64,000 nucleotides of DNA from Naegleria gruberi (lineage: Eukaryota), in the NCBI GenBank assembly GCA_000004985.1, contig GG738847.1. One strand, given 5' to 3'. Every line of letters begins with the position of its first letter. Position 1 is the first letter of the stretch. The notes beneath the pieces were generated by a model, which had not been told where the DNA came from, did not search any database, and was given only the letters and a program-made list of their open reading frames with translations. Both the position numbers and the translations under genes were made by a program. Shown piece by piece: positions 27,334 to 63,071 of the stretch.

Positions 27334-28541
27334 TCTTTTTGATTTTGTTTCTTTCGTATTGCATCTCTCGCTATTCGATAGGTATTGGTGGATGTGATAA
27401 TAGTTTAGGATGGACCTGTCAGTTATAGATGATTTCAATAAATTGGGACATTTCATCAACCATCTTTCTGAACGCTTTGGAAAAACGACATGTTTTTGAT
27501 GGGACAAAATTGACAAGTTGACACATAGCAAGTATGATAACAAATTAGTGATTTGCCTAGTTGAGTTTTAGAGGATGTAGTGAGCTTTATTGGATTGTTG
27601 CATTTTGATTCTGGAATCCAGAAGAATCTTGTTTCGATTTTTCCTTAAGAAAAAAAGGTTTCGTCGCTTCATTTACAGGATGTGTATCCGAAAGGTTGAG
27701 TTGTAAAAGAACATGTTTTGTTGAAGGATGATTTCTCAAGTTTCATTCACTAGTCCAATATGAAATCTTTGAAACTGTCATCTGTAGGTCAGTTTCTTAA
27801 TGTTTATTCAAACCTTTCCAATGAAAAAAATGTAAAAATCAACAATTTAAACACATGTTATTTTTGATTAATAGTGACATTGCCTGTTATTGTGGAATTG
27901 GTAGAATAATCCAATAATTGAAGTGTTGATTTAGAAGTTGTAAACTAAAGTACAACAATTCACACCCATCACAAACTACTGCATTCTTCCATTACAATCA
28001 TTGATGAGTGGAAAGTTGTACATTTCTGAGTGTTTGATTTTTCAATAATTGTAAAACAATAATGTTATTGGATAACACAACAATTTCTCCTCTTGATTCA
28101 TTCTCATGCAGTATTGCACTAAGAGAGGTAAAACTTTTCAAACTTCACTTGTTTGTGTTGAATGAATTGTAGATATCGAACAATGAAATTAATTTTTTTA
28201 AAACTGTCTCTCTGTGTAATCCATTTCCAATACTGAAAACTAATTATTGAATTATCAATAATTCATCATCTCCAAAGAAAATGTGATTGACTTGAGTCAT
28301 TGTTATAACCAACAATTAAAAGAGACGTTTCAAACCATTGAAGTGAGGGTGTTAAATGTTGAATTTCAACGAAGAAAGGGGAGACACTTCACCAATCAAC
28401 AAAATTGCTGTAAAGTTGACAACAAGTGTCTACTGTCATCTTATCACAAACTAGAAAAAAAAAACTCAATACTTGATCAACGCAAATCTTCACACAGTTC
28501 ACATAAATTGATTGCAATATTTTGTAACCCATCATCACACA

Positions 28542-30359
28542 ATGAGTAACAATAATTCTGAAGATATTGCTGCTTCAAGTTTTGCCAATAGAAAGGCTCT
28601 ATTCCAAAACCTACAGAGCAATCCAAGTAATAGTAGCACAACTACCAAATCTACTACTACTCAATCTTCCACTTCCACTACTACCACTGGTAAATTACCT
28701 GCATTCAATCCGATCAATAAATCATCGACACCAAGCAACTCGTCATCTACTACCTCCAGCACAACTCCCGCCAATTCTAATACAGTAGTCACCAACAACA
28801 CAAGTGGCAGTGGAGGAGGTTCGAGCCAATTTAGGGAAGCTTTGAAAGGATTGAGTGGTGCAGCTGGAGGTAATCCACTGTTTGCTGGTGGTTTTGTGAA
28901 GAGTACAACAACAACTGCAACCACCAGTTTGCCAACTTATAAACCATCAACACCGAGAGGTAATAATAATAACAGTGGTGTTGTAAATTCGGTGAGTGAA
29001 AAGAAGGAACCACCTAAATTACCACCACGTAGAGGATCTGGTATTGGATCAAACAATACAAGCACTGCTACACTCACATCAGGTGGTAGTAATAATAATA
29101 ATAATAATTTGCAAACAGCAACAACAACAACAACTAGTCAACCTCCTCCTGCTTTGCCTCCTAGAAAACTTTCACAAAAGAAAGATGAACCACCACAAAT
29201 ACCAATTGTTACTAAGCAACAAGTTGTCGTAGAGGAAGAACCAATTGTTGAGGAGGAAATTCATCACGAAGAAGAAGAGGAAGACGAGGAAGAAGTTATT
29301 CAAGTACGTGATAGTATTCGACATGAAAGTGATGACGAGGATGAGTCAGACTCGGAGGAAAGTTCTACACCTTCTACACCAAGTGGAACATCATCTTCTA
29401 CTACATCAATTAACAATAACAATAATTCACTTCCACAAACATTGACCATTCAGAGTACTCCACCTCCTCTACCAAAGAAAACACCAAGTCAAGAAACACC
29501 AATTGTTGATAGTTATTCCATCACATTACATAATGCTACACAATCTTTGAACAACAACAAATCAAATCAGAATGATGACGAAGATCCAACAGCAAATCTA
29601 CCAAAGGGATGGACAGCCTACTTTGACCCTGGTCGTCAGGCCCACTATTACCACAATGAATTTACTGGAAAAACAACATGGAAGAAGCCTCCATCCGATG
29701 TTATTGTCTCCTCTTCATCATCTACTTCTGCAACAACAACAAAGGAAGAAGAACAATTAGAAGATGGATGGACAGCCTATTTCGACTCTGGTAGACAAGC
29801 CTACTACTATCATCACGAACAGACTGGTAAAACTACATGGAAGAAACCAATCAAGCAACAACAACAACCAAAGGTTTCTCCTCGCAAGCAAACTCCACCT
29901 CCAACTAGTACTACCACTTCTGCTGTACAACAACAACAAACTTCTCCACAGAAACAAACACCTCCAGTTGTCCCAACTAGAAAACTCTCACAAAAGAAGG
30001 ATGATGTTGCTCAGGAATCAACAACGCAACAACCTCCTTCTATTCCTCCTGTAAAACCAACTCGTCCTGCTACCAAGAGTATTATTGAGAATAATCCTCC
30101 TCCAGTTGTTGTTGTCGAGAGCAAACTTCCATCATTACCACCTGCAAAACCAATTAGAAAGGAAACAAATTCTCCAACAACAACTCAAGGAGATTCATCT
30201 GCTCCACCTCTTCCTCAGGAAAACCACTCAACAAGGCAACACCCCCACCACAAATTCCAACAGGAAAACCATCAAGAAATCCTTTGGAATCTTCTGCAAA
30301 GAATGATCATCGTCAATCGACAGTCATTAGGGAAGATGTCATGTTGCAACCACAATTAA
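28542..30359 (+). CDS. N-terminal segment (frame 0) of a probable single WW-domain-myosin gene: Ser/Thr/Asn-rich, two WW domains, and repeated Pro-rich motifs.
   Basis: ATG at 28542 (MSNNNSEDIAASSFANRKALF). WW domains are LPKGWTAYFDPGRQAHYYHNEFTGKTTWKKP and LEDGWTAYFDSGRQAYYYHHEQTGKTTWKKP. PPxxP motifs: PPPALPPRKLSQKK, TPPVVPTRKLSQKK, PPAKPIRKE. The ORF runs on in frame 0 to a TAA at 30359 and overlaps the downstream myosin ORF, which sits in the -1 frame. The frame switch is best explained by a 1-nt error at the C5 run at 30242-30246. Confidence 0.6.
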   Translation: MSNNNSEDIAASSFANRKALFQNLQSNPSNSSTTTKSTTTQSSTSTTTTGKLPAFNPINKSSTPSNSSSTTSSTTPANSNTVVTNNTSGSGGGSSQFREALKGLSGAAGGNPLFAGGFVKSTTTTATTSLPTYKPSTPRGNNNNSGVVNSVSEKKEPPKLPPRRGSGIGSNNTSTATLTSGGSNNNNNNLQTATTTTTSQPPPALPPRKLSQKKDEPPQIPIVTKQQVVVEEEPIVEEEIHHEEEEEDEEEVIQVRDSIRHESDDEDESDSEESSTPSTPSGTSSSTTSINNNNNSLPQTLTIQSTPPPLPKKTPSQETPIVDSYSITLHNATQSLNNNKSNQNDDEDPTANLPKGWTAYFDPGRQAHYYHNEFTGKTTWKKPPSDVIVSSSSSTSATTTKEEEQLEDGWTAYFDSGRQAYYYHHEQTGKTTWKKPIKQQQQPKVSPRKQTPPPTSTTTSAVQQQQTSPQKQTPPVVPTRKLSQKKDDVAQESTTQQPPSIPPVKPTRPATKSIIENNPPPVVVVESKLPSLPPAKPIRKETNSPTTTQGDSSAPPLPQENHSTRQHPHHKFQQENHQEILWNLLQRMIIVNRQSLGKMSCCNHN

Positions 30360-33300
30360 TGCCATCTCTTCCAGATGAAGTTGGATTTTCTAGAAAGTCC
30401 ATCTCACGTGATCGTTATCAACCAATCAACTCTGCATATCAACAAGATTTCCGTGTTCGTAGATTGGAAGATCGTGAAATGTGTGACGATTTAACATTGC
30501 TCCTTTCACAAAGTTCAATGAAATCAAAGAAATCCGAGCAAATGGTGGTTCCACAAAAGACTGAAATTACAGAAATTGATTTGACCAACATTTTGGCCAA
30601 TCGTTATTATCAAAATGAAATTTACACATGTGTTGGTCCTGCCATTCTCTCAATCAATCCATATAAGGCTGTAAAGGGTCTATACAGTAATGAAACAAAG
30701 GCTCTCTTCCACTCTCACATTCCATACGAGTTGGCTCCTCATATTTATTCACTTGCTGAGGATGCTTATCGTACATTGTTGGAACATGCCACTGCTAACA
30801 AGCCAACCTCCACTCATGTCACAAGAGCTAGACCTGCCATTACTGCTGTGTCATCTTCTTCTGCTCACTCTAAAAAGATGCCACCTCCTCCACCTCCTGG
30901 TAAACCAATCAATAAGGAAGCTGATTTGGATGATGATACATTCATTATTAATGATTTCAGTATTTCAGATGGTATTGGTGTTGGACAAGCAATTATTATT
31001 CAAGGTGAATCTGGTTCTGGTAAGACACTAGCCAGCAGAATTATCATGGAATACTTGGCTGCTGTTTCAATTTCTGGATTGGAAACTCAAAGAATCAAGG
31101 ATTCAATTCTTCAAAGTAATCCACTCTTGGAAAGTTTTGGTAATGCCAAGACTCTTCGTAACAACAACTCTTCTCGTTTCGGTAAATTTACCAACTTGTA
31201 TTTTAACTTTAAGGGCCAACTCATGGGAGGTGAGCTCACAACCATTCTCCTCGAAAAGGCCAGAGTTGTCAAGAGAAGACTTGGAGAACGTAATTTCCAT
31301 ATCTTTTACCAATTGTTATCTGATGATTATATTAGAAAACAACTCAATCTTGGTTTCCCAGAAGAGTACAATTACCTCAACAATAATGTTATCAATATTA
31401 ACGAAGTTGATGACAAGTCAGAATTTGAAACAACCAAACGTGCCATGGATTTATTGGACATGAGTGTTCCAGAACAAATGGCTGTTTTCAAGATTGTTGC
31501 TGCCATTTTGCAATTGGGTAATATTACCTTCACAGCCATTGAAGATCCTGAGGAGAGAAAGAGAAGAAACATCGCTCCTGGTGTTGAAGCTTGTGATGTT
31601 TCTAATGAAGCTTCATTGAAATTGGTTGCCAACACTCTCCAAATTGATGCTGAATTCTTGAGAAGATCAATGATTATCAGAGTTATCAAGACTGTTGGTT
31701 CTCCAATGCCAATTGAACAAACTCAATCAGTGGAACAAGCTGAATTCAACAGAGATACTCTCGCCAAGAATATCTATGAACGTTTGTTCTTGTGGTTGGT
31801 CAAGAGAGTCAACAGAGCATTGAGAGTTCCTGACTATGAAGATTTTGTTGCCAAGAAGAATTCTGAAACTTACTACAATATTGGTATCTTGGATATTTAT
31901 GGTTTTGAAATCTATGACAAGAATATTGGAACAGGAAAGATTGTTGATCAAGATGAAGCATCCAATCAAGGCAAACTCAAGAACGGCTTTGAACAATTGT
32001 GTATCAACTTTGTCAATGAAAAGATTCAAAGTGGTGTTCAAAGATCCATCAAGAAGGAACAAGAAGACATTCAAAAGGAAATTTATGGAGATGACTTTAA
32101 GCCAACTCTTGCCTCTACTCAAGAGAGAAACAAGAGATTCGACTCTGATGCTGCTATTCAAATGATTGCTGGCAAGCCAATCAGTGTCTTTTCATTGTTG
32201 GATGAAGAATCCATGTTCCCTAATGGTAATGATGTTAACTATGTTCAAAAGATGAAGACCAACATCAAACATCCATACTTTAAGATTCCAAGAATTGCAG
32301 AACCAACAGAATTTGAATTGGAACACTTTGCAGCTCTCGTCAAGTATAACACTGCAGATGGATGGGTTGACAAAAATCGTGACACTTTACTCGCTGAAAT
32401 GCTCTACACTATGCAAAATACAAAGGACCACTTGCTTATGGCTCTCTTCCCTAAGAATGAACAAGCTAATGATGTTCTCTCTAAAAAGCCAGCCAATGCA
32501 GGAACCAAACTTCAACAAACAACTGCTGAAAAGTTCTTGAGAGATGTCAGCAAGTTGATGAATCAATTGAGTTCATGCAGCTTGAAACATCACCACATTA
32601 GATGTATCATTCCAAACTATGAAGGAAGAGCTGATGATTTCCAAAAGGACGTTGTTAATCACCAAGTTAGATATTTGGGTATTTTAGACACTGTCCTCTC
32701 GAGAAAAGCCGATGATTTGGGATCCAATGTGACTGGTTACAGCATTAAGATTCCGTACGATACCTTCCTTGAAAGATACAAGCTTCTCTGTCCTGAAACA
32801 TTCCCATATTGGGAAACTTTCATTACCAACAAGTATGGTCCTGTTGAGGAATTCACTATTGAACACAAGAAGGAAGCAGTCCATCAAATTTTGAGCCAAG
32901 AACATATTGGTATGACCAATCCACAAGATTTCTTCTTGGGTAGAGGTAATGTCTTGTTGGCCTCTCCAGTTCAACTCTTCCAATTGGATGAAATGATCAG
33001 AGAACAAAAACATGAAATGGCTAGAAAGATTCAAAACTCCTTCAGAAGATACAGAAAGAAGAGAGCTGGAAAGATGGAAGAAATGATGAAGAAGGCTATC
33101 AAGACAACTGAACCAACCAAGCAAAAGGAAGCTCCTGAAGAAATCAGAATTAGACATGACGGTTTCAGAACATCCAACTTTGGTGAAACAAAGAAACGTG
33201 TCTTGATCACTGGTAGTGACAGAAGAAATATTTTCCTCTTGGATACTACAAGCTCATCTTCAGAGTTTGAACAATTGAGAAAGATTGCCATTAGAGATAT

Positions 33301-35959
33301 CAAGAAGATTTACATTTCACCATACTCTGATAATTACATGATTTTCAAGTTGGACATGGATGAAGGTGATGAATTGGTAGAACTAGATAACAAGTGGGAA
33401 TTTTTGGAAGAATTTAACAAGCTTATTGAATCAACTGCCTCTAACTTTAAGGGTGAACATGTTCCAAGAGTTGAAGTTACCAAGGACATTAGTATCCTCA
33501 ATCATCAAAAGGACAAGAACACTGGTACTCAAAATTTATTGGTCAGATTTATTCCATCTGCCTACAATACCAAGAAGACTGTTACCACTGAATGCTATGC
33601 TGATGAATTTGATAATAGACTCTTCATTGTCAACACCTTCACTCAAGCTGATATTTACAATCAAAGAAAGTTGAGAAGAAAGGCCTCACTCTATGCCAAG
33701 CAAGATCAAAACAGAGATTACTTGAGAATGCAAAACAGTGAATTGATGCAACTCTTAAAGAAGGATTATGATGACTCCAAAGTTCTATTCTCTGGTGTCG
33801 TTTCCAAGTATAACAAGAGATTCAAGAAGCAAGACAGAATTTTCATGGTCACCGATAAGGCCATTTATAATATTGATCCAAGTGGTGGTTACCTCATCAA
33901 TAGACGTGTTCCAATTGGCCAAGTAACCTCTGTCACTGTCTCACCTTACACTGATAACTTCTTTGTTGTTGATCATCCAGATCAAGATATTTTGAGTGAA
34001 AGTGCCAAGAAGACTGAAATTTTGGAATCCATTTTGGAAAGCTTCCAAAATGCTACCAATCAATTGTTACCGGTCAAGGTCACTACCAACTATTACATTA
34101 ACTTGGCCAAGAAGAATACCAAGCGTGTCGCTATTTCATGGATTATTGAACCAGAAAATCAAACACAATTCTCAGTTTCTACACTTGTTCCAAATACTGC
34201 TGGTGGAGCTGATGTTCATGTTGTTTCTGAAGTTGATAACGATAATGACAAGTCAATGAATGATTTGGCTGTTAGACAATCCTTCCAACGTAGATCAGTT
34301 CGTGGTAAGATGGTTAAGAATGGTGATATGGATGAGGTTGATTTGAATGACGTCTTTGGTGGTTTGAAGGTTCGTAGAAAGGACTCTCTCCTCGTCTGGT
34401 TCCAAGGTGATTATTTGAACTTTAAGGACAATCCAAAATTCATCGAAATGGTCAAGAAGCACGATCCAGAATGGAATGGACAAGTTCTCTTCTCTAACCT
34501 AATGACTAAAGTCAATAAGAGATTCAGAACTCAACCTAGAAAGGTTGTAGTTACACCAAATTACATTTACACTCTCGATGATGAAAAGTTACACTTTAAC
34601 AGAATTACTCCAATCAAGGATTTGAGTGGTATTTCTCTCAGTACTATGAGAGATGCCTTCTTTGTTGTCCACTGCCCAACTGATCACGATTTATTTGCAT
34701 CTTGTAAGAAGAAGACTGAATTAGTTTCTGTTATTTGTGATGCCTTCAAAGATAAGACTGGTATGGATCTCCCAGTTCACGTAGAAGATAAATTCGTCTA
34801 CAAACCAAGTACAGATGTTAAAGGTGTTAAAACAATTGAATTTAGACATGATCCAACCACCAAGGTTCCAATCCTTACTCCAACCAAGTTGGGTTGTCTC
34901 ATTCAAGTTAACAATTCTGATCCTGAAAAGGTTAAACAAAACTTACCAACTGCCAAACAACAAAAACCAGCTGCAACTCCACAACTCAAGTTATATGAAG
35001 GTTCTGATGAAAGAGGTATTCAAGATAAGATGGATTCCATCTATACAGGAAGAAAGGGACGTAATAGAAGATCTCTCCTTCGTGAATATCTTGGTGACTA
35101 TTTGAGATTGGAAGGTACACAAAGAATGAAGAAGGTTTTCGATAGAAATGGTGATACTGAATTAATCTTCTCTGGACAAGTTCTCAAATATAACAAGAAC
35201 TTTAAGAAGCAACATCGTTTATTGGTTGTAACAGACAAGAATGTTTACAATATTGATGAACAAGAATTCAAGATTAAGAGAAAGATTCCACTTGAAGAAA
35301 TTACAGGTGTCTCTGTTTCTCCATTCGACGACAATGTATTTGTTATGCACTGTCCAACTAGTGGTGACTATTTGTTGGAAGATGAAAAGAAGACTGAAAT
35401 TATTTCTGCTCTCCAAAATGCAAGACTCAGACACTTGAAACAACCATTGAAGATTAATGTTGATGACCAATTTAACTTTGCTCCAAACTCTTCATCTACC
35501 ATGCCAGTTACTTTCATTAGTGATGATCACTGCAAGGATACTTGGGCTGAGAATAGAGCTAATGCATTGGTTGTTCACGTAAAGAGACAAGAACCTGGTG
35601 TAGTATTGGAAGCTGCCTATCTCTATTTGAATGAAGAATCTAAACCAATTGAAGTTAAATCAACACCAATTCTTATCAAATTGAAGAAGAGATGGACCTA
35701 CAAGTTGCAAATTCGTTTCTATGTCAATGAATACTTGGCAGGATGTGAATTCCACGAAAAGATTGATACTGTGTCTTCGAGACTTGAATTTGTATCCAAA
35801 GTTGTTGAACTGGAACCAAAAGAAGAACGTTATGTTATTACCCTTCCTGAAAGAAAGGTAATTTATTCATTGCTTTCCAAAACCAGAGTCAAGTGCAAGC
35901 TAGTTGATCCAAGTGGTAAAGTTCTCATGGCTGTTCGTTTTGTTTATGATATTCAATAA
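30284..35959 (+). CDS. Unconventional myosin, class-I-like. The head has GESGSGKT P-loop, NNNSSRFGKF switch I and DIYGFE switch II. One IQ motif follows, then a tail of 3-4 tandem TH1-like (PH-like) modules. This is probably the C-terminal continuation of the upstream WW-domain ORF.
   Basis: Frame-2 ORF is open from about 30175 to the TAA at 35957-35959. The track start at 30284 is a TTG. The first in-frame ATG (30338) is still upstream of the earlier ORF's stop, so the two ORFs cannot be separate genes. The motor begins TEIDLTNILANRYYQNEIYTCVGPAILSINPYK. IQ motif: ARKIQNSFRRYRKKR. TH1-like repeats: VLFSGVVSKYNKRFKKQDRIFMVTDKAIYNID..VSPYTDNFFVV; VLFSNLMTKVNKRFRTQPRKVVVTPNYIYTLD..FFVVHCP; LIFSGQVLKYNKNFKKQHRLLVVTDKNVYNID..VSVSPFDDNVFVMHCP. 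Confidence 0.85.
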   Translation: MESSAKNDHRQSTVIREDVMLQPQLMPSLPDEVGFSRKSISRDRYQPINSAYQQDFRVRRLEDREMCDDLTLLLSQSSMKSKKSEQMVVPQKTEITEIDLTNILANRYYQNEIYTCVGPAILSINPYKAVKGLYSNETKALFHSHIPYELAPHIYSLAEDAYRTLLEHATANKPTSTHVTRARPAITAVSSSSAHSKKMPPPPPPGKPINKEADLDDDTFIINDFSISDGIGVGQAIIIQGESGSGKTLASRIIMEYLAAVSISGLETQRIKDSILQSNPLLESFGNAKTLRNNNSSRFGKFTNLYFNFKGQLMGGELTTILLEKARVVKRRLGERNFHIFYQLLSDDYIRKQLNLGFPEEYNYLNNNVININEVDDKSEFETTKRAMDLLDMSVPEQMAVFKIVAAILQLGNITFTAIEDPEERKRRNIAPGVEACDVSNEASLKLVANTLQIDAEFLRRSMIIRVIKTVGSPMPIEQTQSVEQAEFNRDTLAKNIYERLFLWLVKRVNRALRVPDYEDFVAKKNSETYYNIGILDIYGFEIYDKNIGTGKIVDQDEASNQGKLKNGFEQLCINFVNEKIQSGVQRSIKKEQEDIQKEIYGDDFKPTLASTQERNKRFDSDAAIQMIAGKPISVFSLLDEESMFPNGNDVNYVQKMKTNIKHPYFKIPRIAEPTEFELEHFAALVKYNTADGWVDKNRDTLLAEMLYTMQNTKDHLLMALFPKNEQANDVLSKKPANAGTKLQQTTAEKFLRDVSKLMNQLSSCSLKHHHIRCIIPNYEGRADDFQKDVVNHQVRYLGILDTVLSRKADDLGSNVTGYSIKIPYDTFLERYKLLCPETFPYWETFITNKYGPVEEFTIEHKKEAVHQILSQEHIGMTNPQDFFLGRGNVLLASPVQLFQLDEMIREQKHEMARKIQNSFRRYRKKRAGKMEEMMKKAIKTTEPTKQKEAPEEIRIRHDGFRTSNFGETKKRVLITGSDRRNIFLLDTTSSSSEFEQLRKIAIRDIKKIYISPYSDNYMIFKLDMDEGDELVELDNKWEFLEEFNKLIESTASNFKGEHVPRVEVTKDISILNHQKDKNTGTQNLLVRFIPSAYNTKKTVTTECYADEFDNRLFIVNTFTQADIYNQRKLRRKASLYAKQDQNRDYLRMQNSELMQLLKKDYDDSKVLFSGVVSKYNKRFKKQDRIFMVTDKAIYNIDPSGGYLINRRVPIGQVTSVTVSPYTDNFFVVDHPDQDILSESAKKTEILESILESFQNATNQLLPVKVTTNYYINLAKKNTKRVAISWIIEPENQTQFSVSTLVPNTAGGADVHVVSEVDNDNDKSMNDLAVRQSFQRRSVRGKMVKNGDMDEVDLNDVFGGLKVRRKDSLLVWFQGDYLNFKDNPKFIEMVKKHDPEWNGQVLFSNLMTKVNKRFRTQPRKVVVTPNYIYTLDDEKLHFNRITPIKDLSGISLSTMRDAFFVVHCPTDHDLFASCKKKTELVSVICDAFKDKTGMDLPVHVEDKFVYKPSTDVKGVKTIEFRHDPTTKVPILTPTKLGCLIQVNNSDPEKVKQNLPTAKQQKPAATPQLKLYEGSDERGIQDKMDSIYTGRKGRNRRSLLREYLGDYLRLEGTQRMKKVFDRNGDTELIFSGQVLKYNKNFKKQHRLLVVTDKNVYNIDEQEFKIKRKIPLEEITGVSVSPFDDNVFVMHCPTSGDYLLEDEKKTEIISALQNARLRHLKQPLKINVDDQFNFAPNSSSTMPVTFISDDHCKDTWAENRANALVVHVKRQEPGVVLEAAYLYLNEESKPIEVKSTPILIKLKKRWTYKLQIRFYVNEYLAGCEFHEKIDTVSSRLEFVSKVVELEPKEERYVITLPERKVIYSLLSKTRVKCKLVDPSGKVLMAVRFVYDIQ

Positions 35960-36433: not shown

Positions 36434-37744
36434 TTAAAAAGACAAGTCAATCTTTTTCGAGTAAAATTGTTTGTACCACCTTCTCAACTTCATCACTGGC
36501 CCATCACCCTTCACCAAACTCGGTGTTCTCTTATAAATCTTATTCTCCCAAACTGTGATATCATTCTGCCACTGAGCTACCCAATTTCCCACAACATACC
36601 AAACTAATAGTCGAGGAATTTTCTTCTCTGCATACGCAACAAAGCCAACATCCAGATTTGTTTTGCTCTTTGGAGAATGTGTATGGAATAGATAGATTCT
36701 GCCAAAACTTCCATCAAATCTGAAAAGTGCAATTCCTGCAGGACCAAATAATTCAATTCGAGCATTTACGGTCGTGGAGGTGAGTTTCTTACCGAAAATT
36801 TCGAGACATGCCTTGTTAGTAAAGTAGGCAATATGAGGATCTGAATCTGAGAGTTTAAATTCTGCTTGATGTATAATTTGGACGAAAGGAACCTGAATTG
36901 AACGACCAAATATTGATCTAGGTCCACTCCATGGCAAAACCATTTGGCCATGCAAGGGTTGGAAATGTTGAAAATCTGCCGAGTTCTCAGCAAAATCTTG
37001 AATATTCATTCTAATATCTTCATATGAATAATTCCCAAAATGGTAAAATTTGTCCATGTCCAAATCTTGTGGATTCAACAATGGATACTGAGGTGGTAAA
37101 CCTTCCTTCTCTGAATGGAACCACACCAAAATCATACCATACTTCTCTTCACAATACCACGATCGAGTGTGAGCATTCTTTGGAATTGTTTCATTACAAT
37201 TTTCTGAATGTTGACATGAGCTCTTGTCACAATTATTTGGAATTTTGACACATTGACCATCTCTATCAAATTCCCATAAATGAAATGGACATTGAATGTT
37301 ATTTCCAATAACCTTACCTTCCACTCCTAAATTACTTCCCAAATGTGGACAATAAGCATCTAAAACTCCGACAGAACCATCAAATCCTCGAAACACAACC
37401 ATGTCCTCGCCAAAGTAGTGGACAAGTTTGGAGCTACCTTTTGATAACTCATTTGAGAAACAAATTCTGAACCAACCGTTTGGAAACTGATCAATAAACG
37501 TACTTTCTCTAAATTTAGATGATGCATTTCTATTCGATTCTGCTGAATGTTTTTGATCTTTCGTTTTGAAATCATACCACTTGTTGGCTATCAGGACTGC
37601 CAATAGTACAAGATTGAGAAGTAAACTAACTGCAATAAGCGTTTCAGTTTCAAAACTAAACATTTTTTTTAACTTTCTCAAATTGACTAGACGAAACTGA
37701 TTGTACTCACGTGTTATTGAAGTGAAAATAGAGAAAGGATGCAT
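36434..37744 (-). CDS. Rieske [2Fe-2S] non-heme iron oxygenase with an N-terminal membrane anchor. Neverland/DAF-36-like (cholesterol 7-desaturase family) candidate.
   Basis: Rieske ligands CPHLGSNLGVEGKV...NIQCPFHLWEFDRDGQC (CxH...CxxH). The motif GWFRICFSNELSKG..LVHYFGEDMVVFRGFDGSVGVLDAYCPH is characteristic of the Neverland family. N-terminal TM TLIAVSLLLNLVLLAVLIANKWY. The likely true start is the second ATG at 37663 (AAAAAAAATG context); the ORF is otherwise open from 37744. Confidence 0.75.
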   Translation of the reverse strand: MHPFSIFTSITREYNQFRLVNLRKLKKMFSFETETLIAVSLLLNLVLLAVLIANKWYDFKTKDQKHSAESNRNASSKFRESTFIDQFPNGWFRICFSNELSKGSSKLVHYFGEDMVVFRGFDGSVGVLDAYCPHLGSNLGVEGKVIGNNIQCPFHLWEFDRDGQCVKIPNNCDKSSCQHSENCNETIPKNAHTRSWYCEEKYGMILVWFHSEKEGLPPQYPLLNPQDLDMDKFYHFGNYSYEDIRMNIQDFAENSADFQHFQPLHGQMVLPWSGPRSIFGRSIQVPFVQIIHQAEFKLSDSDPHIAYFTNKACLEIFGKKLTSTTVNARIELFGPAGIALFRFDGSFGRIYLFHTHSPKSKTNLDVGFVAYAEKKIPRLLVWYVVGNWVAQWQNDITVWENKIYKRTPSLVKGDGPVMKLRRWYKQFYSKKIDLSF

Positions 37745-56094: not shown

Positions 56095-56437
56095 TTATAT
56101 ATGATGATAGAAAATTGGGTCACGTTTCAAAGCTTTTCTATCAATCAAGGACCAAATAAGAGTAATTTCTCTTTTAATATTATCATAAGACCATGAAATT
56201 GGAAAAACTATTCTCTCAATATTGGCCCAAAATTGAAGGGATGGTCTCAAGGCTTCAACACGAGATGATTGACCTTGAATTGTAAGATAAGCAATTATAA
56301 ACGTAGTTCCTTCGAATTTGTTCCATAATTCGGATAATGGTTTGANNNNNNNNNNNNNNNNNNNNNNNNNNNNNNNNNNNNNNNNNNNNNNNNNNCGAAT
56401 TTGTCCATAATTCGGATAATGGTTTGATTAAAAGCAT
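56095..56437 (-). CDS. Putative small minus-strand CDS, interrupted by the 50-nt assembly gap. The lower-coordinate part encodes ...KPLSELWNKFEGTTFIIAYLTIQGQSSRVEALRPSLQFWANIERIVFPISWSYDNIKREITLIWSLIDRKALKRDPIFYHHI*. Function unknown.
   Basis: Minus-strand frame is open from ATG ~56437 (MLLIKPLSELW) into the gap. The sequence on the two sides of the gap is a near-exact duplicate (cgaatttgt(t)ccataattcggataatggtttga), so the gap is probably a contig-overlap artefact. A possible upstream exon MDPITRCLKLPEKPT with a GTAAAA donor lies at ~56690. Weak model. Confidence 0.3.
56346..56395. other. Assembly gap (50 N) flanked by a ~33-bp direct duplication. Likely a scaffolding join of overlapping contig ends.
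   Basis: N-run 56346-56395. Left flank is ...cgaatttgttccataattcggataatggtttga and right flank is cgaatttgtccataattcggataatggtttga... Confidence 0.9.
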
Positions 56438-60600: not shown

Positions 60601-63071
60601 NNNNNNNNNNNNNNNNNNNNNNNNNNNNNNNNNNNNNNNNNNNNNNNNNNNNNNNNNNNNNNNNNNNNNNNNNNNNNNNNNNNNNNNNNNNNNNNNNNNN
60701 NNNNNNNNNNNNNNNNNNNNNNNNNNNNNNNNNNNNNNNNNNNNNNNNNNNNNNNNNNNNNNNNNNNNNNNNNNNNNNNNNNNNNNNNNNNNNNNNNNNN
60801 NNNNNNNNNNNNNNNNNNNNNNNNNNNNNNNNNNNNNNNNNNNNNNNNNNNNNNNNNNNNNNNNNNNNNNNNNNNNNNNNNNNNNNNNNNNNNNNNNNNN
60901 NNNNNNNNNNNNNNNNNNNNNNNNNNNNNNNNNNNNNNNNNNNNNNNNNNNNNNNNNNNNNNNNNNNNNNNNNNNNNNNNNNNNNNNNNNNNNNNNNNNN
61001 NNNNNNNNNNNNNNNNNNNNNNNNNNNNNNNNNNNNNNNNNNNNNNNNNNNNNNNNNNNNNNNNNNNNNNNNNNNNNNNNNNNNNNNNNNNNNNNNNNNN
61101 NNNNNNNNNNNNNNNNNNNNNNNNNNNNNNNNNNNNNNNNNNNNNNNNNNNNNNNNNNNNNNNNNNNNNNNNNNNNNNNNNNNNNNNNNNNNNNNNNNNN
61201 NNNNNNNNNNNNNNNNNNNNNNNNNNNNNNNNNNNNNNNNNNNNNNNNNNNNNNNNNNNNNNNNNNNNNNNNNNNNNNNNNNNNNNNNNNNNNNNNNNNN
61301 NNNNNNNNNNNNNNNNNNNNNNNNNNNNNNNNNNNNNNNNNNNNNNNNNNNNNNNNNNNNNNNNNNNNNNNNNNNNNNNNNNNNNNNNNNNNNNNNNNNN
61401 NNNNNNNNNNNNNNNNNNNNNNNNNNNNNNNNNNNNNNNNNNNNNNNNNNNNNNNNNNNNNNNNNNNNNNNNNNNNNNNNNNNNNNNNNNNNNNNNNNNN
61501 NNNNNNNNNNNNNNNNNNNNNNNNNNNNNNNNNNNNNNNNNNNNNNNNNNNNNNNNNNNNNNNNNNNNNNNNNNNNNNNNNNNNNNNNNNNNNNNNNNNN
61601 NNNNNNNNNNNNNNNNNNNNNNNNNNNNNNNNNNNNNNNNNNNNNNNNNNNNNNNNNNNNNNNNNNNNNNNNNNNNNNNNNNNNNNNNNNNNNNNNNNNN
61701 NNNNNNNNNNNNNNNNNNNNNNNNNNNNNNNNNNNNNNNNNNNNNNNNNNNNNNNNNNNNNNNNNNNNNNNNNNNNNNNNNNNNNNNNNNNNNNNNNNNN
61801 NNNNNNNNNNNNNNNNNNNNNNNNNNNNNNNNNNNNNNNNNNNNNNNNNNNNNNNNNNNNNNNNNNNNNNNNNNNNNNNNNNNNNNNNNNNNNNNNNNNN
61901 NNNNNNNNNNNNNNNNNNNNNNNNNNNNNNNNNNNNNNNNNNNNNNNNNNNNNNNNNNNNNNNNNNNNNNNNNNNNNNNNNNNNNNNNNNNNNNNNNNNN
62001 NNNNNNNNNNNNNNNNNNNNNNNNNNNNNNNNNNNNNNNNNNNNNNNNNNNNNNNNNNNNNNNNNNNNNNNNNNNNNNNNNNNNNNNNNNNNNNNNNNNN
62101 NNNNNNNNNNNNNNNNNNNNNNNNNNNNNNNNNNNNNNNNNNNNNNNNNNNNNNNNNNNNNNNNNNNNNNNNNNNNNNNNNNNNNNNNNNNNNNNNNNNN
62201 NNNNNNNNNNNNNNNNNNNNNNNNNNNNNNNNNNNNNNNNNNNNNNNNNNNNNNNNNNNNNNNNNNNNNNNNNNNNNNNNNNNNNNNNNNNNNNNNNNNN
62301 NNNNNNNNNNNNNNNNNNNNNNNNNNNNNNNNNNNNNNNNNNNNNNNNNNNNNNNNNNNNNNNNNNNNNNNNNNNNNNNNNNNNNNNNNNNNNNNNNNNN
62401 NNNNNNNNNNNNNNNNNNNNNNNNNNNNNNNNNNNNNNNNNNNNNNNNNNNNNNNNNNNNNNNNNNNNNNNNNNNNNNNNNNNNNNNNNNNNNNNNNNNN
62501 NNNNNNNNNNNNNNNNNNNNNNNNNNNNNNNNNNNNNNNNNNNNNNNNNNNNNNNNNNNNNNNNNNNNNNNNNNNNNNNNNNNNNNNNNNNNNNNNNNNN
62601 NNNNNNNNNNNNNNNNNNNNNNNNNNNNNNNNNNNNNNNNNNNNNNNNNNNNNNNNNNNNNNNNNNNNNNNNNNNNNNNNNNNNNNNNNNNNNNNNNNNN
62701 NNNNNNNNNNNNNNNNNNNNNNNNNNNNNNNNNNNNNNNNNNNNNNNNNNNNNNNNNNNNNNNNNNNNNNNNNNNNNNNNNNNNNNNNNNNNNNNNNNNN
62801 NNNNNNNNNNNNNNNNNNNNNNNNNNNNNNNNNNNNNNNNNNNNNNNNNNNNNNNNNNNNNNNNNNNNNNNNNNNNNNNNNNNNNNNNNNNNNNNNNNNN
62901 NNNNNNNNNNNNNNNNNNNNNNNNNNNNNNNNNNNNNNNNNNNNNNNNNNNNNNNNNNNNNNNNNNNNNNNNNNNNNNNNNNNNNNNNNNNNNNNNNNNN
63001 NNNNNNNNNNNNNNNNNNNNNNNNNNNNNNNNNNNNNNNNNNNNNNNNNNNNNNNNNNNNNNNNNNNNNNN
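60601..63071. other. Assembly gap (2471 N).
   Basis: Continuous N-run. It removes the 5' part of the EGF-repeat gene and any sequence between it and the subtelomere. Confidence 0.95.

What the first reader, a model, noticed from the sequence alone, without database searches (positions are those of the whole stretch)
32940..35959. Myosin tail built from 3-4 tandem TH1-like modules
After a single IQ motif (ARKIQNSFRRYRKKR), the tail contains repeated ~120-aa modules. Each begins VLFSG/LIFSG-x-V-x-KYNK-x-FKKQ-x-R-(I/L)(F/L)VVTDK-x-(I/V)YNID and contains V(S/T)VSP(Y/F)(T/D)DN-x-FV(V/M)(D/H)(H/C)P. That is the tail-homology-1 (PH-like, lipid-binding) pattern of class I myosins, here reiterated at least three times with a more degenerate first copy. 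Class I myosins normally carry one TH1. The head has class-I-like DIYGFE switch II, but no obvious TEDS-rule acidic/phosphorylatable residue at the expected position. This looks like a distinct myosin class or subclass.
Basis: partly seen in the sequence, partly recalled or inferred. Interest (0 to 1): 0.55.

Follow-up and report, generated by a model that had tools for sequence, protein, structure and literature searches.

The report
Naegleria class-I myosin, four TH1 domains
This is an already catalogued Naegleria gruberi class-I myosin whose tail really does carry four tandem lipid-binding TH1 domains, a feature published in 2017; it also ends in a RhoGDI-like domain that I could not find described anywhere.

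Summary
The 1891-codon ORF at 30284-35959 (+) encodes a myosin motor, one IQ-like motif and four Myosin_TH1 domains. Each TH1 scores above Pfam's threshold when scanned alone (41.5, 102, 116 and 135 bits). The repeat period is about 230 aa, not about 120.

The interpretation does not hold. The window is Naegleria gruberi, and the protein is the annotated myosin D2V147. Kollmar & Mühlhausen 2017 (PMC5583752, Additional file 1) place heterolobosean myosins of this architecture in class 1. [quoted passage not shown] The motor alone scores best against solved class-I motors.

All 11 relatives examined, including one from Pharyngomonas, have exactly four TH1 domains. Repeats 2-4 best match the same-numbered repeat in the other five family members compared, so the tail is old and conserved.

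Two additions:
- The two WW domains lie in the upstream ORF (28542-30215). A 1-nt frame break separates them from the motor, and the public gene model omits them.

Verdict: real, but already known. Modest interest.

The parts
28542..30215 (+). N-terminal extension of the same gene. It is low-complexity and Pro/Ser/Thr/Asn-rich, with two WW domains (nt 29610-29690 and 29769-29849). It sits in a different reading frame from the motor ORF.
   Evidence: Pfam WW scores 68.4 bits in two stretches. The ORF is collinear with the N-terminus of the N. fowleri orthologue P0002, a single 2542-aa protein: the start motif SFANRKALFQ and both WW domains align, E 1e-38.
30160..30360 (+). Zone where the WW frame and the motor frame are both open. 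Comparison with N. fowleri puts a 1-nt frame break at about 30215 (PPLP | SGKP...).
   Evidence: Three-frame translation, plus no GT..AG intron that spares conserved residues. The N. fowleri sequence across the junction is. The window also contains N-run assembly gaps, so a draft-sequence error is plausible.
30539..32998 (+). Myosin motor domain with P-loop GESGSGKT (aa 241), switch I NNNSSRFGK (aa 293) and switch II DIYGFE (aa 537). It has two lineage-specific insertions, one before the P-loop (aa 176-232) and one directly after switch II (aa 543-567). The TEDS site is Met.
   Evidence: Pfam Myosin_head 545-549 bits. The best PDB matches are class-I motors.
33020..33064 (+). Single IQ-like motif, ARKIQNSFRRYRKKR.
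   Evidence: Read directly from the sequence. It fits IQxxxRxxxx(K/R). No Pfam IQ hit was reported at E<=1.
33170..33604 (+). TH1 domain 1 (aa 963-1107), degenerate. The Lys of the PH-type K/R signature is replaced.
   Evidence: Pfam TH1 41.5 bits, above the gathering score of 31.1. My own HMM gives 19.7 bits.
33656..34354 (+). TH1 domain 2 (aa 1125-1357), including the N-terminal RRK..GDYL-type motif and an intact K/R signature.
   Evidence: Pfam 102.1 bits. It best-hits repeat 2 of the other five family members compared.
34355..35041 (+). TH1 domain 3 (aa 1358-1586), with an intact K/R signature.
   Evidence: Pfam 115.8 bits. It best-hits repeat 3 of the other five family members compared.
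35042..35581 (+). TH1 domain 4 (aa 1587-1766), the most canonical copy.
   Evidence: Pfam 135.4 bits, covering profile positions 5-185 of 185. phmmer against the Myo1c tail 4R8G gives E 5e-6. The AF2 model matches 4R8G with Foldseek E 1.4e-8.
35582..35959 (+). C-terminal RhoGDI-like immunoglobulin-fold domain (aa 1767-1891) plus the stop codon. It has no RhoGDI N-terminal regulatory arm.

Best explanation
What it is. This is the Naegleria gruberi member of a heterolobosean-specific subfamily of class-1 (class I) myosins. The full gene most likely runs from ATG 28542 to the stop at 35959. Its parts, in order:
- an N-terminal proline-rich extension of about 560 aa with two WW domains;
- a class-I-type motor;
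- one IQ-like light-chain site;
- four tandem TH1 domains;
- a terminal RhoGDI-like Ig domain.

Shown here: the domain identities, their order, the count of four, and the conservation of that count. The position-by-position orthology of repeats 2-4 extends to Pharyngomonas, so the tail was built before the sampled Heterolobosea diverged and has been kept intact.

Inferred mechanism:
- As in other class-I myosins, the motor works on actin while the tail holds a membrane.
- TH1 domains 2-4 each keep the basic Lys/Arg pair that, to my knowledge, is required for phosphoinositide binding in the Myo1c PH-like core (residue numbers K892/R903 are recalled, not checked here). The tail would therefore bind acidic lipids multivalently. 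That would give high avidity, long membrane residence, or bridging of two membrane patches.
- TH1-1 has lost the Lys and more likely acts as a spacer or protein-binding module.
- The terminal RhoGDI-like beta-sandwich would add a second kind of contact. The most attractive version is insertion of a prenyl or other lipid group from a Rho/Rac-type GTPase or similar cargo.
- The WW domains would recruit, or fold back on, PPxY/PPLP-type proline motifs.
For: Identity:
- 100% match to the N. gruberi myosin D2V147.

Domains:
- Pfam hits for the motor, the four TH1 domains and the WW domains.

Class:
- The best PDB motor hits are all class I.
- Kollmar & Mühlhausen 2017 describe exactly these two heterolobosean class-1 peculiarities.

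Conservation:
- My HMM finds exactly 4 TH1 domains in the window protein and in P0001-P0011. These come from N. fowleri, N. lovaniensis, Willaertia and Pharyngomonas, plus unnamed environmental sequences.
- Repeats 2, 3 and 4 each best-match the same-numbered repeat in the other five family members compared.

Lipid signature:
- The Lys and Arg columns that align with Myo1c in 4R8G are invariant in repeats 2-4 of six family members. The Lys is lost in repeat 1.
- Repeats 2-4 and the C-terminal domain carry net positive charge, +4 to +8.

RhoGDI-like domain:
- The same domain follows TH1 in motor-less proteins: RING+TH1+domain, and a Willaertia protein with 3xTH1+domain. This suggests that TH1 and this domain work together.
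Against: - No experiment exists for this protein. Lipid binding by any of its TH1 domains, and ligand binding by the RhoGDI-like domain, are inferences only.
- The RhoGDI similarity is at fold level. Identity is 17-20%, Pfam Rho_GDI scores 17.3 bits against a cut-off of 26.5, hhalign probability is 8.9%, and a profile search of PDB sequences found no RhoGDI.
- The profile found no canonical RhoGDI among 1.84 billion representatives. Common ancestry is therefore unproven, and the prenyl pocket was not examined.
- In this assembly the WW region is out of frame with the motor, so in N. gruberi it might not be translated together with it.
- The TEDS site is Met, which is atypical for class I.
- My NJ tree used only class I and class XI sequences, so it cannot by itself prove class membership.
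Confidence: 0.8

Rival explanations
1. A new myosin class or subclass defined by a reiterated TH1 tail.
For: - In the 120-protein hit list, multi-TH1 tails are absent from every protein outside this family, apart from one protein with two TH1 domains.
- The 4xTH1 motors form their own clade, sister to the other class-I sequences sampled.
- The motor has an atypical TEDS residue and insertions near the P-loop and switch II.
Against: - The published classification, based on thousands of myosins, already puts heterolobosean myosins with this architecture in class 1 and reports the TH1 duplications.
- The motor's best PDB matches are class I, by 34-60 bits over the best non-class-I motor.
- The protein is already in GenBank and UniProt as a myosin.
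Confidence: 0.07
2. The extra TH1 copies are not independent lipid binders. They are a rigid or semi-rigid spacer that extends the reach of a single functional membrane-binding unit, TH1-4 plus the C-terminal domain.
For: - TH1-4 is the most canonical copy (135 bits) and TH1-1 is clearly degenerate.
- TH1 followed directly by the RhoGDI-like domain recurs as a unit in motor-less proteins.
Against: - Repeats 2 and 3 keep the Lys/Arg signature invariantly in all six family members aligned.
- Each is conserved position by position. A pure spacer would not be expected to show this.
- Both repeats are net basic.
Confidence: 0.2
3. The C-terminal domain is a generic Ig-like protein-protein interaction module. 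Its resemblance to RhoGDI is structural convergence, with no lipid or GTPase connection.
For: - Sequence-level evidence is sub-threshold.
- The profile retrieves no canonical RhoGDI.
- The regulatory arm of RhoGDI is absent.
Against: - In Foldseek the next group consists of the other lipid-binding members of the same fold (UNC119, PDE6D, NPC2).
- Pfam's only recurrent weak hit is Rho_GDI, in the correct register, in 5 of 10 members.
Confidence: 0.4
4. The repeats are an assembly or gene-model artefact, such as a collapsed or duplicated region of a draft genome.
For: The window comes from a draft assembly with N gaps and has a frame break just upstream of the motor.
Against: - The repeats are only 32-37% identical to each other.
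- They lie in one uninterrupted ORF.
- The same four-repeat order is found in independent genomes and transcriptomes from four named genera.
Confidence: 0.01

Closest known systems
Heterolobosean class-1 myosins as catalogued by Kollmar & Mühlhausen 2017 (PMC5583752, Additional file 1, Fig. S5; N. gruberi shown as representative)
   Same: Same organism group and same architecture. [quoted passage not shown]
   Different: Nothing differs in kind. Their text gives no repeat number and makes no statement on positional orthology of the repeats. It does not mention a RhoGDI-like terminal domain: the string 'GDI' occurs 0 times in the paper and its held supplements.
Canonical short-tailed class-I myosins (vertebrate Myo1b/Myo1c; Myo1c tail structure 4R8G)
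   Same: - The motor is most similar to Myo1b and Myo1c.
- An IQ motif is followed by a TH1 domain.
- TH1-4 matches the Myo1c tail both by sequence (E 5e-6) and as a model (Foldseek E 1.4e-8).
- The Lys/Arg signature columns are conserved.
   Different: - One IQ-like motif instead of several.
- Four TH1 domains instead of one.
- An added RhoGDI-like domain and an N-terminal WW extension.
- Met at the TEDS site.
- Insertions before the P-loop and after switch II.
RhoGDI (ARHGDIA/ARHGDIB), C-terminal prenyl-binding Ig-like domain
   Different: - Only 17-20% identity.
- Below Pfam's threshold.
- No N-terminal helical arm, the part that contacts the GTPase switch regions and inhibits nucleotide release.
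- Fused to a myosin tail rather than free-standing.
- The pocket has not been verified.
Kinetoplastid class-I myosin (TbMyo1 type) with WW and FYVE additions
   Same: Another class-1 myosin from the Discoba group that has acquired WW domains. Kollmar & Mühlhausen list these as independent, lineage-specific domain gains.
   Different: [quoted passage not shown] Here the two WW domains lie in a long N-terminal extension and the TH1 is quadruplicated.

Membership tests
Class 1 (class I) myosin | The motor domain groups with class-1 motors rather than with any other class. | tested here: met
   - The top eight distinct PDB sequences hit are class I (307-366 bits). The best non-class-I hit is Dictyostelium myosin II at 306 bits.
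- All close non-family hits in the 5.8-billion-protein search are class I.
- The published classification places heterolobosean myosins of this architecture in class 1.
- My NJ tree is only a rough check, with class XI as the sole outgroup.
Class 1 (class I) myosin | Neck with one or more IQ motifs directly after the converter. | tested here: met
   ARKIQNSFRRYRKKR at aa 913-927 fits the IQ pattern. Pfam IQ gave no hit at E<=1, so this rests on reading the motif.
Class 1 (class I) myosin | Tail containing a TH1 domain. | tested here: met
   Four PF06017 hits, each above the gathering score.
Class 1 (class I) myosin | TEDS rule: an acidic or phosphorylatable residue 16 positions before DALAK. 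| tested here: not met
   The residue is Met in N. gruberi, Thr in N. fowleri and Asn in Willaertia, and Ser or Glu in the other 4xTH1 myosins. To my knowledge the TEDS rule is a regulatory feature of many myosins rather than a strict class criterion, so this does not exclude membership.
Myosin_TH1 domain (PF06017) | Profile score above Pfam's gathering threshold (31.1 bits). | tested here: met
   41.5, 102.1, 115.8 and 135.4 bits for the four tail segments scanned separately.
Myosin_TH1 domain (PF06017) | PH-like core fold flanked by helices and a C-terminal beta extension, as in the Myo1c tail. | tested here: met
   The AF2 model of TH1-4 (pLDDT about 82-90 across the domain) shows helix, PH-like strands, helix and a beta extension. 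It matches 4R8G_E at Foldseek E 1.4e-8. TH1-1, TH1-2 and TH1-3 were not modelled.
Myosin_TH1 domain (PF06017) | Basic Lys...Arg pair in the beta1-loop-beta2 region, needed for phosphoinositide binding in Myo1c. The residue numbers K892 and R903 are from my memory of Hokanson et al. 2006. | tested here: met
   Both columns are invariant in repeats 2-4 of six family members. The Lys is not conserved in repeat 1. Actual lipid binding cannot be tested with these tools.
RhoGDI family (PF02115) | Sequence profile score above the gathering threshold (26.5 bits). | tested here: not met
   17.3 bits (E 0.0037) for the window domain. Five of 10 family members give sub-threshold hits, best E 1.7e-4. The profile found no canonical RhoGDI.
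RhoGDI family (PF02115) | Ig-like beta-sandwich with the RhoGDI topology. | tested here: met
RhoGDI family (PF02115) | N-terminal helical regulatory arm that binds the GTPase switch regions. | tested here: not met
   The domain begins directly after the last strands of TH1-4 (aa 1766/1767). No helical segment lies between them in the two-domain model.
RhoGDI family (PF02115) | Hydrophobic pocket that accepts a geranylgeranyl group. | not testable with these tools
WW domain (PF00397) | Profile score above the threshold, with two conserved Trp and a Pro. | tested here: met
   68.4 bits in two stretches. WTAYFD...TTWKKP occurs twice. In this assembly the WW domains lie in an ORF out of frame with the motor.
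Novel myosin class | The motor lies outside all established classes in a broad phylogeny. | tested here: not met
   Contradicted by the class-1 assignment in the literature and by the PDB score ranking. A full reference phylogeny was not run here.

The most novel reading that the evidence does not exclude
The conserved C-terminal RhoGDI-like domain is a working lipid (prenyl) pocket. On this reading, these heterolobosean class-I myosins are motors that physically hold a prenylated Rho/Rac-type GTPase or similar lipidated cargo while three TH1 domains grip the membrane. That would be a motor-coupled 'GDI-like solubilising factor', and I found no paper mentioning it. The same domain, paired with TH1 in motor-less proteins (RING+TH1+domain, 3xTH1+domain) or with an RGS domain, would then define a small, uncatalogued domain family. 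Its named members are heterolobosean; the other members are unnamed environmental sequences.
Probability: 0.2. Interest if true: 0.6.

Novelty: already known. Interest (0 to 1): 0.3.

Why it matters
For the finding as submitted, the main value is housekeeping. A sequence-only reader recognised a real and unusual tail, but the tail is already in the myosin literature and the gene is already annotated.

Three points could be useful to specialists:
- The four-TH1 tail is ancient and conserved position by position, out to Pharyngomonas. Each repeat is therefore under its own constraint. This makes the tail a natural system for asking what multivalent TH1-membrane binding does for a class-I motor.
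- The terminal RhoGDI-like domain suggests a direct link between a class-I myosin and lipidated small GTPases in Naegleria, an amoeba whose crawling and phagocytosis depend on Arp2/3-nucleated actin networks (Velle & Fritz-Laylin 2020, PMC7594500). This is testable with simple binding assays.
- The public N. gruberi gene model (1826 aa) lacks the roughly 560-aa WW-containing N-terminus because of a 1-nt frame break. That should be checked and corrected.

Tried and rejected
- Intron as the cause of the frame change between the WW ORF and the motor ORF. Every GT..AG candidate of the right phase between 30100 and 30330 would delete residues conserved with N. fowleri, so a 1-nt indel is more likely.
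- Sequence-only detection of RhoGDI. A profile of the C-terminal domain against PDB sequences found nothing relevant (best E 0.52, a PCI-domain protein). The assignment therefore rests on structure comparison.
- Exhaustive profile search of 1.84 billion representatives. Only 21 hits, none a canonical RhoGDI.
- Literature searches for a myosin-RhoGDI fusion and searches of both myosin classification papers and their supplements for 'GDI'. Nothing was found. The library lacks most subscription journals, and InterPro/UniProt annotations could not be consulted.
- Foldseek against AFDB50. The library was not available.
- First bootstrap NJ script timed out. I reran it with a faster distance routine.
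- The very low GC at the end of the window, which I first took for AT-rich sequence, is mostly an N gap.
- Before the database hit, I guessed from composition that the organism might be a dictyostelid. That was wrong; it is Naegleria.
Full report
**What is in the sequence**

The region lies in one uninterrupted ORF, 30284..35959 on the + strand, 1891 codons. Pfam on the whole translation gives Myosin_head at 545 bits and Myosin_TH1 at 369.6 bits in four stretches.

I cut the tail into pieces and scanned each alone. All four pieces exceed the TH1 gathering score of 31.1 bits:
- aa 930-1135: 41.5 bits, a partial match to profile positions 53-153
- aa 1136-1370: 102.1 bits
- aa 1371-1595: 115.8 bits
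- aa 1596-1780: 135.4 bits

Repeats 2-4 are 32-37% identical to each other, with BLASTP E-values from 2.5e-21 to 3.5e-31. Repeat 1 is degenerate, with E about 1e-5 to repeats 2 and 4.

- the IQ-like ARKIQNSFRRYRKKR at aa 913
- VLFSG, VLFSN and LIFSG at aa 1167, 1401 and 1627
- DIYGFE at aa 537

The strict TEDS position is Met. The period is about 230 aa (a whole TH1 plus linker), not about 120 aa. There are four copies.

**Whose gene it is**

A search of 5.8 billion proteins returns a 100%-identical entry, 'myosin [Naegleria gruberi]', UniProt D2V147, 1826 aa. The annotated model starts at Met66 of the ORF (nt 30479).

Close relatives:
- N. fowleri, 76% identity, 2542 aa, with WW domains
- Willaertia magna, 55%
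- Pharyngomonas kirbyi, 40%; the source was identified by cluster look-up
- a second paralogue in N. lovaniensis and Willaertia
- several unnamed environmental or transcriptome sequences

**Conservation of the four-fold tail**

An HMM built only from the window's repeats 2-4 finds exactly four TH1 domains in the window protein and in each of P0001-P0011. It finds one in the roughly 105 other class-I myosins of the hit list, and two in P0038.

In all-against-all BLASTP of the repeats from six family members, repeats 2, 3 and 4 always best-match the repeat with the same number in every other member, including Pharyngomonas. Repeat 1 does so among most members. It has diverged strongly in the WW-bearing paralogue to which the window gene belongs. 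The quadruplication therefore predates the divergence of the sampled Heterolobosea. Each copy has since been conserved separately. An assembly artefact is excluded.

**Class of the motor**

The motor region alone (nt 30539-33070) scores best against solved class-I motors:
- Myo1b, 366 bits
- Dictyostelium MyoE, 347 bits
- Myo1c, 340 bits
- another myosin I, 307 bits
- best non-class-I motor (Dictyostelium myosin II), 306 bits

I built a quick NJ tree from 688 motor columns, using class XI as the only outgroup. The 4xTH1 myosins form a clade in 60 of 100 bootstraps, and in 100 of 100 when a single-TH1 Willaertia myosin is included. That clade is sister to the other class-I sequences sampled. 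This is only a rough check.

**What is already published**

Their Additional file 1 lists lineage-specific domain changes in class 1. [quoted passage not shown] N. gruberi is the representative in their Fig. S5.

That is this architecture. That outcome is met, so the finding is real but already known.

**TH1 details and likely function**

TH1-4 aligns to the Myo1c tail of PDB 4R8G by sequence, E 5e-6. A two-domain AF2 model (pLDDT 81.9) matches 4R8G at Foldseek E 1.4e-8.

I aligned all repeats from six family members with the Myo1c segment. The Lys and Arg columns are invariant in repeats 2-4. To my knowledge these correspond to the Myo1c residues required for phosphoinositide binding. In repeat 1 the Lys is replaced. 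Repeats 2-4 are net basic.

From this I infer, without experimental support, that the tail binds acidic membranes through three competent TH1 units. Repeat 1 would act as a spacer or adaptor.

After TH1-4 come 125 residues that are 76% identical on average across the family. Evidence on this domain:
- Pfam gives only a sub-threshold Rho_GDI match: 17.3 bits against a cut-off of 26.5. It recurs in 5 of 10 members, best E 1.7e-4.
- An AF2 model has pLDDT 87.9 and is all-beta.
- In Foldseek against the PDB, the top 31 hits are all RhoGDI (E 2e-8 to 6e-7, TM 0.75-0.84). UNC119, NPC2 and PDE6D follow at about 1e-4.
- The RhoGDI regulatory arm is absent, because the domain starts directly after TH1-4.
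- A profile search of 1.84 billion representatives finds only 21 proteins and no canonical RhoGDI.
- The hits include motor-less proteins: a Willaertia protein with 3xTH1 plus this domain, a RING+TH1+domain protein, an RGS+domain protein and short stand-alone forms.

I found no mention of this domain in either myosin classification paper or its supplements, or in full-text searches. Whether it binds a prenyl group is untested.

**The N-terminus**

The ORF just upstream (28512..30359, first ATG at 28542) contains two WW domains, Pfam 68.4 bits. It is collinear with the N-terminus of the N. fowleri orthologue.

This ORF and the motor ORF are in different frames, and both frames are open across about 30160-30360. 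Comparison with N. fowleri places the switch at about 30215 (PPLP|SGKP). No intron of the right phase spares conserved residues.

The window is from a draft assembly with N gaps. A one-base sequencing error is therefore plausible, and a real frameshift cannot be excluded. Either way the public model is N-terminally truncated.

**Verdict**

The TH1 assignment is correct. The 'new class' reading is not supported, and the multi-TH1 tail is already published.

The RhoGDI-like terminal domain and the gene-model problem are the only parts that may be new. Both need experiments, which are listed under next steps.

Noticed in passing
window 28542-30360: The upstream ORF with two WW domains is the N-terminus of the same myosin gene. 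A 1-nt frame break near 30215 separates it from the motor ORF. The public model D2V147 starts only at nt 30479 and lacks this region.
   Followed up: yes
window 35582-35956: The last 125 aa of the myosin form a RhoGDI-like Ig-fold domain. It is highly conserved in the family and has no significant Pfam hit.
   Followed up: yes
window 31910-31984 and 30809-30979: There is a 25-aa insertion directly after switch II (DIYGFE-IYDKNIGTGKIVDQDEASNQGKLKN-GFEQLCINF) and a Pro-rich insertion of about 57 aa before the P-loop. An insertion at the switch II site is also present in the N. fowleri and Willaertia WW-type orthologues and absent from Pharyngomonas. The effect on the motor is unknown.
   Followed up: partly
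window 31706-31708 (aa 475): The TEDS-rule position is Met in N. gruberi, Thr in N. fowleri and Asn in Willaertia. The other 4xTH1 myosins have Ser or Glu there.
   Followed up: partly
window 56346-56395 and 60601-63071: Runs of N (assembly gaps). They explain the apparent 11-17% GC and the extreme GC skew at the end of the window.
   Followed up: yes
window 36434-37744 (-): The neighbouring 436-aa ORF has Rieske [2Fe-2S] and KshA_C domains. It is a sterol-type Rieske oxygenase, convergent with the myosin gene.
   Followed up: partly
P0082 (EukProt record GECH01012383.1, the same GECH01 transcriptome series as the Pharyngomonas kirbyi protein P0004): An SH3-type class-I myosin whose motor is interrupted just after switch II by an intein-like insertion of about 430 aa. 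Pfam PF14890 is listed for it, and the sequence runs ...GFEQFCISEGT...VHNCINYVNEKLQ.
   Followed up: no
P0137 (Willaertia magna KAL9653901), P0134, P0133: These proteins have no myosin motor but carry the RhoGDI-like domain. P0137 has 3xTH1 plus the domain, P0134 has RING+TH1+domain, and P0133 has RGS+domain. This suggests a small, uncatalogued domain family, often coupled to TH1.
   Followed up: partly
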